The position numbers and the translations under genes are program-made. This document shows positions 13,817 to 26,010 of a DNA stretch of 64,000 bases, one piece after another. A model generated the notes under the pieces. It did no database searches and was not told the origin of the DNA. It saw only the letters and a program-made list of their open reading frames with translations. Position 1 is the stretch's first letter. The number at the start of each line of letters is the position of its first letter. This DNA comes from Candidatus Dormiibacterota bacterium (GTDB lineage Bacteria; Chloroflexota; Dormibacteria; Aeolococcales; Aeolococcaceae), in NCBI GenBank assembly GCA_963718525.1, contig OY970355.1, forward strand, positions 3,104,001 to 3,168,000, given 5' to 3'.

Positions 13817-13858
13817 ACTGGGAGTGTATCTACCTGTACCTAACGATGGGCGTCTATC

Positions 13859-13875
13859 TGATATTGTCGCTATCA
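13859..13875. promoter_or_regulatory. Island motif TGATAT-N5-CTATCA
   Basis: TGATATtgtcgCTATCA immediately before the hemerythrin ATG. Confidence 0.65.
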
Positions 13876-13876
13876 A

Positions 13877-14392
13877 ATGAGCACCACCCGCGTCACCGAT
13901 GTCATCCGAATGGACCACGTGTGGTTCCGCAATCAGTTCACCGCGCTCGGTGACGCGCGCGGCGATGTTGCGCGACTGACTTCGATCTGGGCCGCGCTGT
14001 CAACTCGCCTGGAGGTGCATGCGGCGGCCGAGGAGACGCTCTTCTACCCGCGGTTGCTCAAGGACGACCCCGATGCGGTCGATGACACCAAGGATGCGGT
14101 GAGAGACCACAACGAGATCCGAGACGCGATACGCAACGCCGAGGGGCACAGCGTCGGGGACGATCGATGGTGGCACGCGGTCAACGACACCGAGAAGGCC
14201 AACGACGAGCACATGGACGAGGAAGAACAAGGTCCGCTGCTCGAGTTCGACGATGCTGCGTCCACCGCCGAGCAGGCTGAGCTCGCGTCCGCATTCACGG
14301 CGTTTGAAGCAGAGCATGCAGGGGCTCGGGGTATAGCGGTAGTTGACAAGGACCCGGACGAGTACGTCGAGGAGATCATCGACGAGAGCTGA
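13877..14392 (+). CDS. Hemerythrin/HHE cation-binding protein
   Basis: DH...VHAAAEETLFYP...DHNEI...EHMDEEE. Confidence 0.88.
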   Translation: MSTTRVTDVIRMDHVWFRNQFTALGDARGDVARLTSIWAALSTRLEVHAAAEETLFYPRLLKDDPDAVDDTKDAVRDHNEIRDAIRNAEGHSVGDDRWWHAVNDTEKANDEHMDEEEQGPLLEFDDAASTAEQAELASAFTAFEAEHAGARGIAVVDKDPDEYVEEIIDES

Positions 14393-14413: not shown

Positions 14414-14468
14414 CCGTATAGCTTGTCTGGCAGCTAAGTTGACACGACTGGTGCCGGGTCACTAAGCT
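14414..14468 (+). promoter_or_regulatory. Promoter of candidate sRNA A
   Basis: CCGTATAGC-N16-TTGACA(14439-44)-N18-TAAGCT(14463-68); same layout as the promoter at 23487-23541. Confidence 0.65.
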
Positions 14469-14473
14469 CCTGA

Positions 14474-14562
14474 GGTCGACGGTCGAGAGGTCGTCGTCCC
14501 CACCCCCTCCCAACGAGTCCACCCCGCCGGGATCAAGGTCCACGGCGCGGGTGGACTCTTCG
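14474..14562 (+). ncRNA. Candidate sRNA A (hairpin, C-rich anti-SD tract, terminator hairpin)
   Basis: CGACGGTC-GAGA-GGTCGTCG stem, CCCCACCCCCTCCC, GAGTCCACC...GGTGGACTC stem; paralog at 23393-23480. Confidence 0.6.
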
Positions 14563-14571
14563 GTTTCGCGG

Positions 14572-15765
14572 TCAGGCGAGTGGGAGGACGACGGTGAACG
14601 TGCTCCCGCCACCCGGGGTCGCGGTGACCGCGATGTCGCCCCCGTGGAGCCGAGCGGTCTCACGGGCCAGGTAGAGGCCGAGGCCGGTCCCGCGAATGTG
14701 GCTGGTTTCAGGCGTCACCAGGCGGCCGAACCGGCTGAAAAGCAGATGCGCCTGCTCGGCGTTGATGCCGATCCCGTGGTCGCGAACGACGATGCTCATG
14801 GCTCTGCCGTCATCTTCGCAGCCGATCTCGATCGTCCCACCCGCAGGCGAGTATTTGATCGCGTTGTCGATGAGGTTGGTCAACATGGTGGTGAGGCGGC
14901 GGCGGTCGGCGACAACGGCCACCGAGTCGCGCTGCGTGGTCACAGCGAACCGGTGCTCTTCGCTCATCAGCGGACGCATCGACTGCACGGCATCCTCAAT
15001 GACCCTGAGCAGGTCCAGGGGTTCGAGCTCGAGCTCGAGTCCGAGGGTCTCGAGCCGGGCGGTTTCAAGCATGTCTGAGATCAGTCGCGCCATCTCTTCG
15101 GCCTTCTCGGTGATGCGGCTGAGCGCCACGCGTCGCTCTGCAGGAGGCAACACCCCCTCGCCGAGCATCGATGAGTACCCCCTGATGATTCCGAGAGGGC
15201 TTCGAAGCTCATGCGCGGCGATGTTCAGGAACTCGCTCTTGAGCCGCTCGAGGCGCCGGCTGCGTTCGGCCTCCTGGAGCAGCTCGTCGGCCATCGCGGC
15301 CTGGCTGACTCCGTGACCAACGATGCCGGCAAGCGACTGCAACGTGCCGCGAGCATCGGCGCTGAGTCGGCCCTCGCCGCTGACGACGAGGAGCGCGGCG
15401 ACTCTCTCGTCGCCCCGCACCGGCACGATGACGGCGGGCGGGTCGTCGACAGTCAGGCCCGACGAGATCGCTCGGTCGAATGCAGGGTGGTCGCTGACGC
15501 GATAGGGCCCGCGAGCACTCGGCTCGACGAGGTCCGATGCCGCGACGCACGCCAGAAAATCGCCGCGGAGCAGGAGTAGCCAGGCTTGGCGGGAAATTCC
15601 AGGGGCGGATGCCAGCCGTGAGGCGAGCCTGACCGCTTCGCGGAAGAGCCGGCGCGACGCGTCATCCTGGGTGCCGGGGTCATCCGTAATGGGCGCCGGG
15701 TCCTGCACGGCGGCGAGCGCCTGCTTCAGCTTGCGGTTGGGAGCGAGGCGCGATCGCTCGTTCAA
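14572..15765 (-). CDS. GAF-domain sensor histidine kinase (cytoplasmic)
   Basis: AAHELRSPL H-box, NLIDNAIKYS, DHGIGI, GTGLGLY; start codon uncertain. Confidence 0.9.
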   Translation of the reverse strand: MNERSRLAPNRKLKQALAAVQDPAPITDDPGTQDDASRRLFREAVRLASRLASAPGISRQAWLLLLRGDFLACVAASDLVEPSARGPYRVSDHPAFDRAISSGLTVDDPPAVIVPVRGDERVAALLVVSGEGRLSADARGTLQSLAGIVGHGVSQAAMADELLQEAERSRRLERLKSEFLNIAAHELRSPLGIIRGYSSMLGEGVLPPAERRVALSRITEKAEEMARLISDMLETARLETLGLELELEPLDLLRVIEDAVQSMRPLMSEEHRFAVTTQRDSVAVVADRRRLTTMLTNLIDNAIKYSPAGGTIEIGCEDDGRAMSIVVRDHGIGINAEQAHLLFSRFGRLVTPETSHIRGTGLGLYLARETARLHGGDIAVTATPGGGSTFTVVLPLA

Positions 15766-16123
15766 CGCTCTCGGCGAGCTGCGCCGGAGTGGTGTCGGCC
15801 TTGACCAGGAACTCGAGCGCGCCTAGCTTCATGCCTCGTTCTCGGAGCTCGGGTTCGCCGTAGTTGGTGAGGATGATCACCGGGATGTGCATGGTCTCGG
15901 GGGCCGAGCGAAGGCTCTCCAGCACTTCGAATCCATCGAGGCCCGGGAGACGGAGATCGAGGTAGATGAAGTCCGGAGCTTCGTCTGCGGCCAAGCGCAG
16001 GCCTTCCTTGCCATCGCGACCAATCACCACCGAATAGCCGTCGGCGACAAGTCGCAGCCGATACATCTCCGCTGCGGCGACGTCGTCCTCAATCAGCAGG
16101 ACCTTGACGTCATCCTCCAGCAC
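15680..16123 (-). CDS. Single-domain response regulator (receiver)
   Basis: VLLIEDD, IYLDLRLP, ILTN, FLVKA; GTG after AAGGAGGAG. Confidence 0.9.
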   Translation of the reverse strand: MLEDDVKVLLIEDDVAAAEMYRLRLVADGYSVVIGRDGKEGLRLAADEAPDFIYLDLRLPGLDGFEVLESLRSAPETMHIPVIILTNYGEPELRERGMKLGALEFLVKADTTPAQLAESVERAIAPRSQPQAEAGARRRAGPGAHYG

Positions 16124-16290
16124 GTGCTCCTCCTTGGCCGTTGCAATTGGTCGCTCCCTCGGCAAATGCTACCTCCGCCTCTCGGTACGGTACCAGACAC
16201 AAAGCGCCCGTATTCACCGCACGGGTGTAGGCCCGAGGCCCTGGGACGCCACCGAGGGGCGTCCACCCCGCCGAACGCCAACCGCAGCGA

Positions 16291-16452
16291 TCAGCGAACG
16301 ACGATGCCCACTCCGAAGACGATGGTCCACGCCACGGCAAGGAAGAGTGCCATGCCGGTCACCAGGCTGCGTACGTCCAGCCTCCGACGACGCCGCAATG
16401 CGCGCAGGCGGATTCGAGGGGCAACCACCTCGTCCCGCCTTGGGGAAAGCAT
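16291..16452 (-). CDS. Small single-TM peptide (53 aa)
   Basis: Hand translation MLSPRRDEVVAPRIRLRALRRRRRLDVRSLVTGMALFLAVAWTIVFGVGIVVR*; below the ORF-track cutoff. Confidence 0.5.
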   Translation of the reverse strand: MLSPRRDEVVAPRIRLRALRRRRRLDVRSLVTGMALFLAVAWTIVFGVGIVVR

Positions 16453-16468
16453 CTCGGTCACCGCGCAA

Positions 16469-16504
16469 TGATAGCAATATCGCCGCTATCATGTTTTGTG
16501 ATAG
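16469..16504. promoter_or_regulatory. Island motif, perfect CTATCA-N7-TGATAG plus an extra half-site
   Basis: TGATAG 16469-74; CTATCAtgttttgTGATAG 16486-16504. Confidence 0.75.
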
Positions 16505-16765: not shown

Positions 16766-16882
16766 ATCTCCGAGTGCCGCGGCGATTGACGTATAGAATC
16801 GCTGGGATGCTGGTAACGCGCAGAGCTTCCCTACTGGCCGTCCGTGGCCGTCAGCTCCCACGCATCACATTCGGTCGGTCGA

Positions 16883-17227
16883 ATGCCGGCTGAAACGGTG
16901 GTTCCCACGTCGGAGCGCATGCTCGATCTCGACAAGCCGCTCTACACCATCAGCGTCGCTGCCGAGATCCTCGCAAGCCATCCGCGGACGCTGATGATGT
17001 ACGAGACCATGGGTCTCGGCGTGCCGGACCGCACCGCGACCAATCGGCGGCGGTACTCGCAGCGCGACATCCTCACGCTCAGCGCCATCCAGCGGCTCAC
17101 CAGGCAATCCGGGCTGAACATCGCAGGCGCGCGCTACGTCATCAAATGCCTGCAACTCCTCGACGCGCACGGCATCCCTCGGCCGCCGGAGCTCGCCGGG
17201 ATTGACATCGAGCACGTTCGGCTCTGA
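16883..17227 (+). CDS. MerR-family (HspR-like) regulator, copy 1
   Basis: PLYTISVAAEILASHPRTLMMYE...RTATNRRRYSQRDI...GLNIAG. Confidence 0.88.
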   Translation: MPAETVVPTSERMLDLDKPLYTISVAAEILASHPRTLMMYETMGLGVPDRTATNRRRYSQRDILTLSAIQRLTRQSGLNIAGARYVIKCLQLLDAHGIPRPPELAGIDIEHVRL

Positions 17228-21036: not shown

Positions 21037-21381
21037 TCAGACCTTCACGTGCTCGACGTCGATCTCTGTCAGTTCGGCGGGACGCGGGACCCCATGCGCA
21101 TCGAGCAGCTGGAGACAGAGGATCAGGTAACGGGCGCTGATCAGATTGAGCCCGTATCCGCGAGTGAGTCGCTGAATCGCGCCAAGGGTGATGATGTCGC
21201 GCTGCGAGTACAGTCGACGGTTGCTGGCAGTCCGGCTGGGGACGACCAGGCCGAGATGCTCGTACATCATGAGCGTCCGCGTATGCGTGGCAAGGATTTC
21301 CGCCGTGATGCCGATCGTGTACAGGGGCTTGTCGAGGTTCAACATCTTGACCTCGCTGGTCGGAGCTGCCGCGCGTGTCAT
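21037..21381 (-). CDS. MerR-family (HspR-like) regulator, copy 2
   Basis: 114 aa, close paralog of 16883..17227 (LDKPLYTI, RTLMMYE, YSQRDI, CLQLLDAHG.PRP). Confidence 0.88.
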   Translation of the reverse strand: MTRAAAPTSEVKMLNLDKPLYTIGITAEILATHTRTLMMYEHLGLVVPSRTASNRRLYSQRDIITLGAIQRLTRGYGLNLISARYLILCLQLLDAHGVPRPAELTEIDVEHVKV

Positions 21382-23326: not shown

Positions 23327-23392
23327 CGAGCCAGCTCAGGCCGGCACGCGGTCGATCATGATAGTGAGTGTATACCGTGCGGCCAGCCGCCG

Positions 23393-23486: not shown

Positions 23487-23541
23487 ACTCTATCAGCCTG
23501 GTAGACCTGCTGTCAAGCAAACTTATAACATGGCTATACGG
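23487..23541 (-). promoter_or_regulatory. Promoter of candidate sRNA B overlapped by the island motif
   Basis: Minus strand CCGTATAGC-N16-TTGACA-N18-TAGAGT; TGGTAG-N5-CTGTCA 23499-23515 and CTATCA 23490-95 overlap it. Confidence 0.65.
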
Positions 23542-23937: not shown

Positions 23938-24041
23938 GGTGCTATGCAATCAGATCCATACGTGCCGGCGGGCCGTGCCGTCCGCCGGGGCCTCTTCAAT
24001 CAGGCTGCCACGCTGATACTCGCGCTCTATTCACATCCTTC

Positions 24042-24060
24042 CTATCAGTTTCGCTGATAA
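24042..24060. promoter_or_regulatory. Island motif CTATCA-N7-TGATAA
   Basis: CTATCAgtttcgcTGATAA, 7 bp before the receiver start. Confidence 0.7.
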
Positions 24061-24067
24061 TAGCTTT

Positions 24068-25858: not shown

Positions 25859-26010
25859 GGTTGAAGCTGTAGACTATCAGTAAAGCTGACATTGTCAGTG
25901 TAGATTGTTGCGCTCAACTGCGTACGTGGGAGCAGGTCTACATTCAGCAATGTGTATCTTGGTGATATAGTCGATATCATCAAAATGGCCGGTCATTCAC
26001 TCGCGTAGCT

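What the first reader, a model, noticed from the sequence alone, without database searches (positions are those of the whole stretch)
14414..14562. Candidate anti-Shine-Dalgarno sRNA, copy A
Seen: in the gap between convergent genes lies a near-consensus promoter (TTGACA-N18-TAAGCT) with no downstream ORF. It is followed by a GAGA-tetraloop hairpin, unpaired CCCCACCCCCUCCC and a terminator-like stem, about 88 nt in total. Copy B repeats promoter, size and architecture. Established: C-rich sRNAs (RsaE/RoxS, cuckoo RNAs, 6C RNA) pair with G-rich RBSs. Here the C-tract lies between hairpins rather than in loops. Inference: a new trans-acting sRNA family within the island.
Basis: partly seen in the sequence, partly recalled or inferred. 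Interest (0 to 1): 0.85.

Follow-up and report, generated by a model that had tools for sequence, protein, structure and literature searches.

The report
C-rich small RNA family, Dormibacterota
The flagged stretch is one of two related genes for a roughly 90-base non-coding RNA with an exposed C-rich "anti-ribosome-binding-site" motif, conserved in one genus of uncultured soil bacteria, and it probably tunes translation of other genes, although neither its expression nor its target has been shown.

Summary
Copy A (promoter 14439-14468, RNA about 14475-14566, + strand) and copy B (promoter 23516-23487, RNA about 23480-23392, - strand) are real paralogs. They share a promoter, a 5' hairpin, an unpaired CCCUCCC(C) motif and a GC-rich 3' hairpin.

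A covariance model of the shared core finds only these two sites in the 3.34-Mb genome. It matches 32 of 39 sampled genomes of the same genus, always in the same signalling locus. It gives one weak match (E 8.7e-4) among 111 other genomes of the order and none among 150 sampled across the phylum. No Rfam family matches. Record titles place the host in Candidatus Dormibacterota.

Copy A's structure is supported by compensatory and wobble changes. Its C-tract is nearly invariant and predicted to be unpaired.

- The GAGA loop is not conserved.
- The locus is a conserved chromosomal signalling cluster, not an island.
- In 7 genomes a third, leader-type copy sits directly 5' of a DUF6458 small membrane-protein gene, so the family is not purely trans-acting.

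Expression and targets remain unshown. I class it as a new member of the C-rich/anti-Shine-Dalgarno riboregulator kind, of moderate interest.

The parts
14415..14438 (+). Operator-like repeats upstream of the A promoter (CGTATAG-N5-CTGGCAG-N5, abutting the -35 box)
   Evidence: The layout 7-mer, N5, 7-mer, N5, TTGACA is shared by the A and B upstream regions across homologs (alignment). CCGTATAGC-N16-TTGACA occurs only at A and B in the genome. The motif was defined after seeing the data.
14439..14468 (+). Copy A promoter: -35 TTGACA, 18-nt spacer, -10 TAAGCT
   Evidence: A promoter of this form is kept in 22 of the 23 extracted A homologs (regex, alignment).
14475..14566 (+). Predicted copy A RNA, about 92 nt. 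The start is inferred as 7 nt after the -10 box; the end is inferred at the U-rich tail.
   Evidence: MFE -50.3 kcal/mol, z -3.3. Consensus structure from 22 homologs. Neither end was measured.
14477..14496 (+). A 5' hairpin, 8 bp, with a GAGA loop in this genome only
   Evidence: Two pairs show compensatory GC<->AU changes and there are many G.U changes. Median z is -3.4, and 21 of 22 homologs fall below -1.5.
14498..14511 (+). Unpaired C-rich motif CCCCACCCCCUCCC, containing the anti-SD-like CCUCC
   Evidence: Nearly invariant in 22 homologs. Unpaired in the consensus fold. Median unpaired probability 0.94.
14515..14558 (+). A 3' hairpin (terminator stem), 15 consensus pairs
   Evidence: 98.8% of cells are paired and 2 pairs show double changes.
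14559..14566 (+). U-rich tail UUCGGUUU
   Evidence: One search lists it as a terminator-like site. The median is 4 U in the 10 nt after the stem in 22 A copies, against 2 in B and 1 in C-type copies.
23517..23540 (-). Operator-like repeats upstream of the B promoter (CGTATAG-N5-TTATAAG-N5, abutting the -35 box)
23487..23516 (-). Copy B promoter: -35 TTGACA (23516-23511), 18-nt spacer, -10 TAGAGT (23492-23487)
   Evidence: The promoter regex matched 29 of 30 extracted B homologs; the miss is cut by a contig end.
23392..23480 (-). Predicted copy B RNA, about 89 nt: 5' hairpin 23478-23463, seed UUUCCCUCCCC 23452-23442, 3' hairpin 23437-23403
   Evidence: The covariance model scores it at E 3.6e-11.

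Best explanation
Copy A is a free-standing gene for a roughly 90-nt regulatory RNA. It belongs to a genus-specific family in an uncultured Dormibacterota lineage. Each member has a sigma-70-like promoter with a shared upstream operator-like repeat, a 5' hairpin of free sequence, an exposed C-rich motif (CCCUCCC/CCCUCCCC, which contains the anti-Shine-Dalgarno core CCUCC) and a very GC-rich 3' hairpin.

The most likely mode of action is base pairing of the exposed C-rich motif with G-rich ribosome-binding regions, which would block translation initiation. Copy A ends in a U-tailed terminator directly against a convergent gene, so it can only act in trans. It may also be made as the 3' end of the hemerythrin transcript, whose terminator it supplies. 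Copy B and the leader-type copies upstream of DUF6458 genes may act in cis, in trans, or both.

Shown: conservation, paralogy, synteny, structural support for A, an invariant and accessible C-tract, and no coding potential.
Inferred: transcription, RNA ends, base-pairing mechanism, targets and regulator.
For: Conservation and copy number:
- BLASTN finds A in 24 of 41 other genomes of the genus and B in 31 of 41. They lie on the same contig, 5-9 kb apart, in the same relative orientation.
- 22 full A copies and 28 full B copies were extracted and aligned.
- A and B share the core CCCUCCC(C)-AA-NG-(N)CCACCCCGCCGGG.
- Covariance model R1 hits only A (E 5.5e-11) and B (E 3.6e-11) in the 3.34-Mb genome.
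- R1 hits 32 of 39 genus genomes, usually twice; 0 of 67 genomes in the other 21 genera of the family; 1 of 44 (31 bits) in the sister family; and 0 of 150 others across the phylum sample.

Structure of A:
- 98.6% of 506 pair cells are standard pairs, against 33-60% when partners are slid.
- 4 pairs have double changes, a count reached by 5 of 500 shuffles.
- Sense-strand pairing is 499/506 against 474/506 for the antisense strand, because 31 cells are G.U. This agrees with the promoter and U-tail orientation.

Motif, coding potential and promoters:
- The C-tract is unpaired in the consensus fold, with median unpaired probability 0.94 in A and 0.79 in B.
- Lengths vary by non-multiples of 3 (98-103 nt in A, 93-102 nt in B), so neither strand codes.
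- Promoters are conserved in 22 of 23 A copies and 29 of 30 B copies.

Context:
- A is followed within 4-22 nt by a convergent kinase stop in 18 of 22 loci, and by a convergent receiver gene at +51 to +63 in 3 of 22. It therefore cannot be a 5' leader.

Precedent: an ultraconserved unpaired motif between two stem-loops that pairs with ribosome-binding sites is how Yfr1 works (PMC2796815, passages read).
Against: - No transcript evidence. No RNA run holds the locus. The one run labelled RNA-Seq covers the whole 10 kb evenly and is probably DNA.
- No target. Among 785 GGAGG-led ORF candidates the duplex energies form a smooth distribution (A: mean -19.9, sd 4.7, minimum -34.9; B: mean -15.2, sd 3.3, minimum -27.9).
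- The best extended match lies antisense within a probable permease gene.
- Neighbouring genes show no conserved complementary site.
- B's 3' hairpin has no covariation: 0 double changes in 28 sequences.
- B's 5' hairpin is weakly supported: median z -1.0, and only 8 of 26 fall below -1.5.
- B and the leader-type copies lack a U-tail, so they may not be discrete sRNAs.
- Many genes of this locus appear leaderless, which narrows the pool of SD-led targets.
- The near-invariance of the hairpin-2 sequence in B hints at sequence-specific recognition, for example by a protein, and not only at a terminator role.
Confidence: 0.5

Rival explanations
1. The family is basically a cis-acting 5' leader. 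Its anti-SD motif folds back across the stable hairpin onto the G-rich or SD region of the gene downstream: the DUF6458 gene in some genomes, the STAS-MEDS-MerR operon behind B in others. On this view copy A is a decaying duplicate that survives mainly as the terminator or 3' UTR of the hemerythrin gene.
For: - In 7 genus genomes (loci L115-L121) a family member lies 30-50 nt upstream of a DUF6458 gene, with only an SD in between and no U-tail. R1 with filters off confirms the four diverged copies, E 1e-6 to 6e-3.
- MFE folds of full leaders pair the C-motif with a downstream G-rich stretch in 3 of the 4 folded. In L059 that stretch is the SD itself.
- None of these 7 genomes has an A hit.
- B is always on the same strand as the downstream operon (28 of 28 loci).
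Against: - A cannot be a leader, because a convergent gene lies within 4-22 nt. Yet its promoter, C-tract and hairpins are kept in 22 genomes, which does not look like decay.
- In 24 of 28 B loci a conserved -10 box plus a leaderless mini-ORF lies between B and the operon. The operon therefore has its own start, and its first genes have no SD to sequester.
- The cis pairings are short (5-8 bp) and were found by inspection after the fact.
Confidence: 0.2
2. The RNAs act through a protein rather than by pairing with mRNA. The exposed C-rich strand plus the sequence-invariant GC hairpin would be a binding or titration site for a C-rich-ssRNA-binding protein (KH-, S1- or CSD-type), or for a component of the neighbouring signalling module.
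For: - Hairpin 2 of B is conserved in sequence, including its loop UUCAU, far beyond what a terminator needs.
- No mRNA target stands out.
- The genes sit inside a dense signalling locus: hemerythrin, GAF kinases, REC-only regulators, STAS, MEDS-HATPase and MerR.
Against: - No candidate RNA-binding protein was identified in the locus.
- The hairpin sequence is replaced in the diverged leader-type copies while the C-motif stays. The motif, not the hairpin, is therefore the constant.
- The idea rests on absence of other evidence.
Confidence: 0.15
3. There is no functional RNA. The conserved pieces are DNA elements, namely transcription-factor palindromes and a bidirectional terminator shared by convergent genes, and the promoter-like hexamers are incidental.
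For: - Both hairpins are palindromes at the DNA level, and the fold is about as stable on the opposite strand.
- Operator-like repeats flank the promoters.
- The single-sequence statistics are at chance level.
Against: - Substitutions in A favour G.U pairs on the + strand (499/506 cells paired against 474/506).
- All 8 one-sided changes that keep a standard pair in B's hairpin are to G.U on B's sense strand; 11 other cells are unpaired.
- The 5' hairpin of B keeps a hairpin with unrelated sequences.
- The unpaired C-tract, which is not palindromic, is the best-conserved part.
- The -35 and -10 boxes keep their spacing in 22 of 23 A copies and 29 of 30 B copies.
Confidence: 0.07

Closest known systems
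Yfr1 (cyanobacterial sRNA)
   Same: The architecture is the same: an ultraconserved unpaired motif containing CUCC/CCUCC, flanked by two stem-loops. In Yfr1 the motif pairs with ribosome-binding sites of target mRNAs (PMC2796815, passages read). Both are short RNAs.
   Different: The motif differs: ACUCCUCACAC in Yfr1 against CCCUCCC(C) here. The phylum differs. There is no Rfam match in the window. Targets and expression are unknown here. This family also occurs as a 5' leader.
6C RNA (RF01066, Actinobacteria)
   Same: A high-GC host and a C-rich motif thought to bind G-rich mRNA sites without a known chaperone (PMC6486639; title and abstract start seen in the listing).
   Different: 6C carries its C-runs in two hairpin loops, whereas here the C-run lies between the hairpins. 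The RF01066 model finds nothing in the window or the genome. The host is not an actinobacterium (record titles).
Cuckoo / CcsR (RSs0680) RNAs of Alphaproteobacteria
   Same: An anti-SD-like C/U-rich motif is the only conserved sequence and stems vary freely. Multiple paralogs exist and the genomic neighbourhood is preserved (PMC4615179, passages read).
   Different: The cuckoo motif CCUCCUCCC sits in the loops of 2-4 adjacent hairpins. Here a single motif lies in a linker and hairpin 2 is sequence-conserved. There is no Rfam match.
RsaE/RoxS (Firmicutes) and sX13 (Xanthomonas)
   Same: C-rich motifs that target G-rich regions near start codons. The link of RoxS/RsaE to redox or NO signalling through two-component systems is recalled from memory; it resembles the signalling context here. 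The papers appeared only in the listing (PMC5419742, PMC2790875, PMC3771888).
   Different: The sequences, structures and hosts are unrelated. There is no Rfam match. No regulator or target is shown here.

Membership tests
6C RNA (RF01066) | Match to the Rfam covariance model at or above 47 bits | tested here: not met
   0 matches at gathering score in the 64-kb window. 0 matches at E<=0.001 in the whole genome. Caveat: the control genome Corynebacterium glutamicum also stayed below the cut-off in that search.
6C RNA (RF01066) | C-rich runs located in the loops of two hairpins | tested here: not met
   The C-tract lies in the linker between the hairpins. The loops are GAGA or variable in hairpin 1 and variable in hairpin 2.
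Cuckoo / CcsR RNAs | CCUCCUCCC motif in each loop of 2-4 adjacent hairpins (PMC4615179) | tested here: not met
   The motif here is CCCCACCCCCUCCC (A) or UUCCCCUCCCC (B). It is present once and is unpaired between the hairpins.
Yfr1 | Ultraconserved unpaired motif flanked by two stem-loops | tested here: met
   the C-tract is unpaired in the consensus fold, with median unpaired probability 0.94 (A) and 0.79 (B).
Yfr1 | Motif sequence ACUCCUCACAC, cyanobacterial host, Rfam model match | tested here: not met
   The motif differs. There is no Rfam match in the window or in 12 homologous loci. Record titles name Dormibacterota.
Trans-acting base-pairing sRNA (generic) | Own promoter and intrinsic terminator, with no coding potential | tested here: met
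   Met for A: conserved promoter, hairpin plus U-rich tail, and indels not in multiples of 3. B has a promoter but a poor U-tail.
Trans-acting base-pairing sRNA (generic) | Discrete transcript detected | not testable with these tools
   No RNA holder is listed. The run labelled RNA-Seq behaves like DNA.
Trans-acting base-pairing sRNA (generic) | Identifiable mRNA target with conserved complementarity | tested here: inconclusive
   No outlier among 785 candidate initiation regions or among 28 with an extended G-rich SD. No conserved site at neighbouring genes. Gene calls were crude and only one genome was scanned.
Cis-acting anti-SD 5' leader | Lies directly 5' of, and on the same strand as, the regulated gene, with no promoter in between | tested here: not met
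   Not met for A, which faces a convergent gene within 4-22 nt. Met for the 7 DUF6458-linked copies. For B it is not met in 24 of 28 loci, where a -10 box plus a leaderless mini-ORF intervenes.

The most novel reading that the evidence does not exclude
The family may be caught midway between a cis-acting leader and free-standing sRNAs. In 7 genomes a single copy is the 5' leader of the DUF6458 small membrane-protein gene. In at least 21 others that gene sits elsewhere under a different promoter, and two stand-alone paralogs (A with a true terminator, and B) remain in the signalling locus. These would keep regulating the DUF6458 mRNA or other G-rich-SD mRNAs in trans, under a shared transcription factor whose operator-like repeats occur at the A and B promoters and upstream of the relocated DUF6458 gene. 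That would be a documented route of sRNA birth from a 5' UTR in an uncultured phylum.
Probability: 0.2. Interest if true: 0.6.

Novelty: new member of a known kind. Interest (0 to 1): 0.4.

Why it matters
I found no paper that combines Dormibacterota with small RNA: one search returned 0 papers, and the 15 papers listed have no Dormibacter term. Rfam has no model for this RNA. If it is expressed, this would be a first candidate riboregulator for a widespread soil and peat phylum with no cultured members. It is tied to a conserved sensory locus (hemerythrin, GAF kinases, STAS/MEDS partner-switch-like genes, MerR).

It adds one more independent case of the 'exposed C-rich anti-SD motif' solution in a high-GC lineage. 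Its three genomic contexts (stand-alone, upstream of an operon, gene leader) offer a natural experiment on how leaders and sRNAs interconvert. For a specialist the kind is familiar, so the surprise is moderate.

Tried and rejected
- **Rfam.** No match at gathering score in the window or in 12 homologous loci. Permissive scans around A and B gave only chance-level hits, E 1-8.
- **Sequence similarity A to B inside the window.** BLASTN finds nothing beyond short words. The relation shows only in motif layout and in the core alignment.
- **Expression.** No RNA holder is listed. I laid 4 runs (X10, X8, X16, X5), all as contigs. X10, labelled RNA-Seq, is marked by the tool as probably DNA and covers all 30 bins. 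This says nothing either way on expression.
- **Target search.**
  - 785 GGAGG-led candidates gave no outlier.
  - 28 with GGGAGGG or GGGGAGG gave nothing compelling.
  - The strongest extended match (-38.7 kcal/mol) lies in what looks like an antisense shadow ORF inside a permease gene, so I rejected it.
  - The DUF6458 5' UTR in this genome gives average energies, A -18.7 and B -17.3.
  - The MEDS and kinase start regions show no conserved site.
- **Small-protein reading.** Rejected. A has no start codon before hairpin 2. The 25-codon frame in B is not kept. Lengths vary out of frame.
- **Covariation in B hairpin 2.** None.
- **Alignment A4.** The model-based alignment mixed in reverse-strand images of the palindromic hairpin, so I did not use it.
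- **Wider distribution.** DUF6458 upstream regions in two other genera lack the element; I read 9 loci of genus g2 and 3 of genus g8.
- **Earlier notes of this scan.** Nothing near this place or like this sequence.
- **Supplements.** Supplementary files of papers were not consulted.

Full report
**1. What is in the sequence**

The 179-nt gap lies between a hemerythrin-domain gene (13877-14392, +) and the stop of a convergent HisKA/HATPase kinase gene (14572-15765, -). In order it contains:
- CCGTATAGC at 14414-14422;
- TTGACA at 14439-14444;
- an 18-nt spacer;
- TAAGCT at 14463-14468;
- an 8-bp hairpin with a GAGA loop at 14477-14496;
- the run CCCCACCCCCTCCC at 14498-14511;
- a long GC-rich hairpin at 14515-14558;
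- the tail UUCGGUUU.

Taken alone these features are not beyond chance.
- The promoter pattern is expected 0.67 times per window.
- C-tract-like runs with up to 3 mismatches are as frequent as in shuffles, 11 against 12.6.
- The fold is about equally good on both strands, z -3.3 and -2.7.

**2. Copy B**

A promoter scan and reading of the minus strand located copy B. It comprises:
- CCGTATAGC-N16-TTGACA (23516-23511)-N18-TAGAGT (23492-23487);
- a hairpin GGUGGA-UUAU-UCCACC (23478-23463);
- unpaired UUUCCCUCCCC (23452-23442);
- a GC hairpin (23437-23403).

The pattern CCGTATAGC-N16-TTGACA, allowing 1 mismatch, occurs only at A and B in the 3,336,189-bp genome. The reversed control gives 0 hits. 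BLASTN sees no A-to-B similarity. The core alignment shows a shared CCCUCCC(C)-AA-NG-(N)CCACCCCGCCGGG.

**3. Conservation**

- BLASTN over the 116 other genomes of the family finds A in 24 of 41 other genomes of the same genus. Of these, 21 are full copies after extension, one keeps only the 3' hairpin, and two are weak hits of about 22-25 nt.
- B is found in 31 of 41.
- Other genera give only 19-38-nt chance-like hits.
- In relatives the two copies lie on one contig, 5-9 kb apart, in the same mutual orientation.

A covariance model of the shared core (R1: 22 A plus 28 B sequences, 59 positions, 9 pairs) gave these results:
- own genome: only A and B, E 5.5e-11 and 3.6e-11; the next hits are reverse-strand images and two at E above 0.2;
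- same genus: 32 of 39 sampled genomes, mostly two hits each;
- other 21 genera of the family: 0 of 67;
- sister family: 1 of 44, weak at 31 bits;
- sample across the phylum: 0 of 150 further genomes.

These tallies include three genomes that a later call flagged as unpublished (G004, G005, G014). They count only as negatives. Many of the genomes are incomplete (61-92%), so misses are not absences.

An exact scan of the species-representative collection with the B core found 17 loci. Sixteen carry record titles naming Candidatus Dormibacteraeota or Dormiibacterota MAGs, and one is labelled Saccharimonadales. Earlier notes of this scan name the same phylum for this genome.

**4. RNA-level evidence**

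*Copy A, 22 sequences.*
- RNAalifold gives the 5' hairpin, an unpaired C-tract and a 15-pair 3' hairpin.
- On that structure 98.6% of 506 cells are standard pairs, against 33-60% with slid partners.
- 4 pairs carry double changes, a count reached by 5 of 500 shuffles. The covariation score is 0.145 against 0.108.
- 31 cells are G.U, so the sense strand pairs better than the antisense strand, 499 against 474 of 506. This matches the promoter and U-tail direction.
- The 5' hairpin is stable in 21 of 22 homologs (median z -3.4), but its GAGA loop is not conserved.
- The C-tract is the most conserved stretch, with median unpaired probability 0.94.
- Lengths vary from 98 to 103 nt in steps that break any reading frame.

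*Copy B, 28 sequences.*
- The 5' part has unrelated sequences that mostly still form a hairpin, but statistical support is weak: median z -1.0, and 8 of 26 fall below -1.5.
- The core GAAUUYCCCUCCCCAAAG plus hairpin is almost invariant.
- Hairpin 2 shows no double change, and the one-sided changes that keep a standard pair are all to G.U.
- B has no convincing U-tail: a median of 2 U in 10 nt, against 4 in A.

**5. Context**

The surrounding 15 kb is a signalling cluster:
- hemerythrin;
- HisKA kinase with a receiver gene;
- a Zn-ribbon ORF;
- a MerR-family gene;
- GAF-GAF kinase;
- a MerR-family gene, a MEDS+HATPase_c_2 gene and a STAS gene, transcribed in the order STAS, MEDS, MerR;
- a REC-only regulator;
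- an AI-2E transporter;
- another GAF kinase.

Nothing marks it as mobile, and its order is kept across the genus.

A always follows the hemerythrin gene at 64-186 nt (22 of 22). What lies downstream of it:
- in 18 of 22 a convergent kinase stop follows within 4-22 nt;
- in 3 of 22 a convergent receiver gene follows at +51 to +63;
- in 1 of 22 the kinase alignment starts further off.

No terminator lies between the hemerythrin stop and A's promoter. A's hairpin is therefore also the likely terminator of that gene.

B lies between a divergent REC-only gene (22 of 28) and a same-strand gene:
- STAS in 18 loci;
- the MerR gene directly in 6;
- a DUF6458 small membrane-protein gene in 4.

**6. A third context**

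Searching the genus with the DUF6458 protein gave hits in 40 of 41 genomes. Reading the upstream regions of the 30 loci returned showed that in 7 genomes (G087, G095, G097, G100, G101, G103, G116) a family member lies directly 5' of that gene. It has the TTGACA promoter, the C-motif and a GC hairpin, followed by 30-50 nt containing only a GGAGG before the ATG.

Four of these copies have a diverged hairpin sequence and were missed by the filtered genome search. With filters off, R1 finds all four at the expected place, E 1e-6 to 6e-3. The hairpin is kept with different letters while the C-motif stays. None of the 7 genomes has an A hit.

Full-leader folds pair the C-motif with a downstream G-rich stretch in 3 of the 4 folded. 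Once that stretch is the SD itself. These pairings are short and were found after the fact.

In the A+B genomes the DUF6458 gene is elsewhere (here at C1:491631-491825, -), behind a different conserved upstream region with 12-bp-periodic GCTATA-like repeats. These resemble the repeats upstream of the A and B -35 boxes.

In two other genera the DUF6458 upstream regions lack the element. I read 12 loci from published genomes; 3 loci from unpublished genomes were left unread.

**7. Mechanism**

The constant feature of all copies is an exposed CCCUCCC(C) next to a stable hairpin. That motif is complementary to strong G-rich Shine-Dalgarno regions. The 16S 3' end of this genome carries the usual CACCUCCUU.

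The best reading is pairing with G-rich initiation regions to block ribosome binding. For A this must be in trans. For the DUF6458-linked copies it is possibly in cis. For B it could be either.

This reading remains inferred, for four reasons:
- there are no RNA data;
- no target stands out;
- many genes in the locus look leaderless;
- the near-invariance of B's hairpin leaves room for a protein partner.

**8. Comparison and novelty**

The architecture matches Yfr1, an ultraconserved unpaired motif between two stem-loops that pairs with ribosome-binding sites (PMC2796815, passages). The idea of an anti-SD-like C-rich motif matches 6C, the cuckoo/CcsR RNAs (PMC4615179, passages), RsaE/RoxS and sX13 (listing only). 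It is a member of none of them: there is no Rfam match, and the motif, its placement and the host all differ.

Searches for Dormibacterota with 'small RNA' returned 0 papers, and DUF6458 returned 0 papers.

Verdict: a real, genus-restricted, previously undescribed ncRNA family of a known functional kind. Interest is moderate, limited by the lack of expression data and of a target, and by an uncultured host.

Noticed in passing
window 23336-23372 (- strand); homologous loci L033-L058: Between B and the STAS operon lies a conserved -10-like box (TACACT, 23372-23367), then 7 nt, then a leaderless mini-ORF of exactly 7 codons (23359-23336, MIDRVPA*). It ends 9 nt before the STAS ATG. It is present in 24 of 28 B loci, and in 22 of them it has exactly 7 codons. 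The peptide is only loosely conserved (MIERV.A or MTA..QR). The 4 loci without it are those where a DUF6458 gene follows B. It looks like a leaderless uORF that hands ribosomes to an SD-less gene.
   Followed up: partly
window 15680-16165 (-) versus 15887-16471 (+): The 194-aa + strand ORF picked by a GC3 heuristic is probably an antisense shadow. tblastn hits to it always coincide with a receiver-domain gene on the other strand (PF00072, E 1.3e-20). The kinase at 14572-15765 therefore forms an operon with that receiver gene.
   Followed up: partly
G000:C1:491631-491900 (locus L143), outside the window; loci L127-L144: In genomes with A+B the DUF6458 small membrane-protein gene is preceded by a conserved TGTGATAGTAT box. 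After it come three 12-bp-periodic repeats (GCTATACGAATC / AGCTATAAGATC / GCTGRCAGTATC), then GGGATAGGG and AAGGAGG. One of the 7 genomic copies of CCGTATAGC lies there. This may be the same regulator as at the A and B promoters.
   Followed up: partly
promoter spacers of family members, e.g. L121 about 1350-1400; window 14445-14462 and 23510-23493: The -35/-10 spacers of the A, B and leader-type promoters keep a GGTAC(C)/TACCAG element. In L121 the whole spacer is a 21-nt perfect palindrome (ACAATGT-CGGTACC-ACATTGT). This is reminiscent of MerR-type operators, and two MerR-family genes lie in the locus (16844-17227 +, 21037-21381 -). This was seen by eye and was not tested.
   Followed up: no
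window 13830-13876, 24020-24067, 25859-25910, 25985-26010: Several genes of the locus (hemerythrin, the REC-only regulator, the AI-2E transporter, a GAF kinase) have a -10-like box 6-8 nt before their start codon and no SD. This suggests widespread leaderless mRNAs in this organism.
   Followed up: no
locus L099 (genome contigs): One of the 17 exact matches to the B core lies on a contig whose record title says Candidatus Saccharimonadales. All the others say Dormibacterota, so this is probably a mis-binned contig.
   Followed up: no
locus L023 (G088): In one genome the A promoter, 5' hairpin and C-tract are missing. A hemerythrin-promoter-like sequence abuts the remaining 3' half of hairpin 2, which looks like a natural deletion variant.
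   Followed up: no
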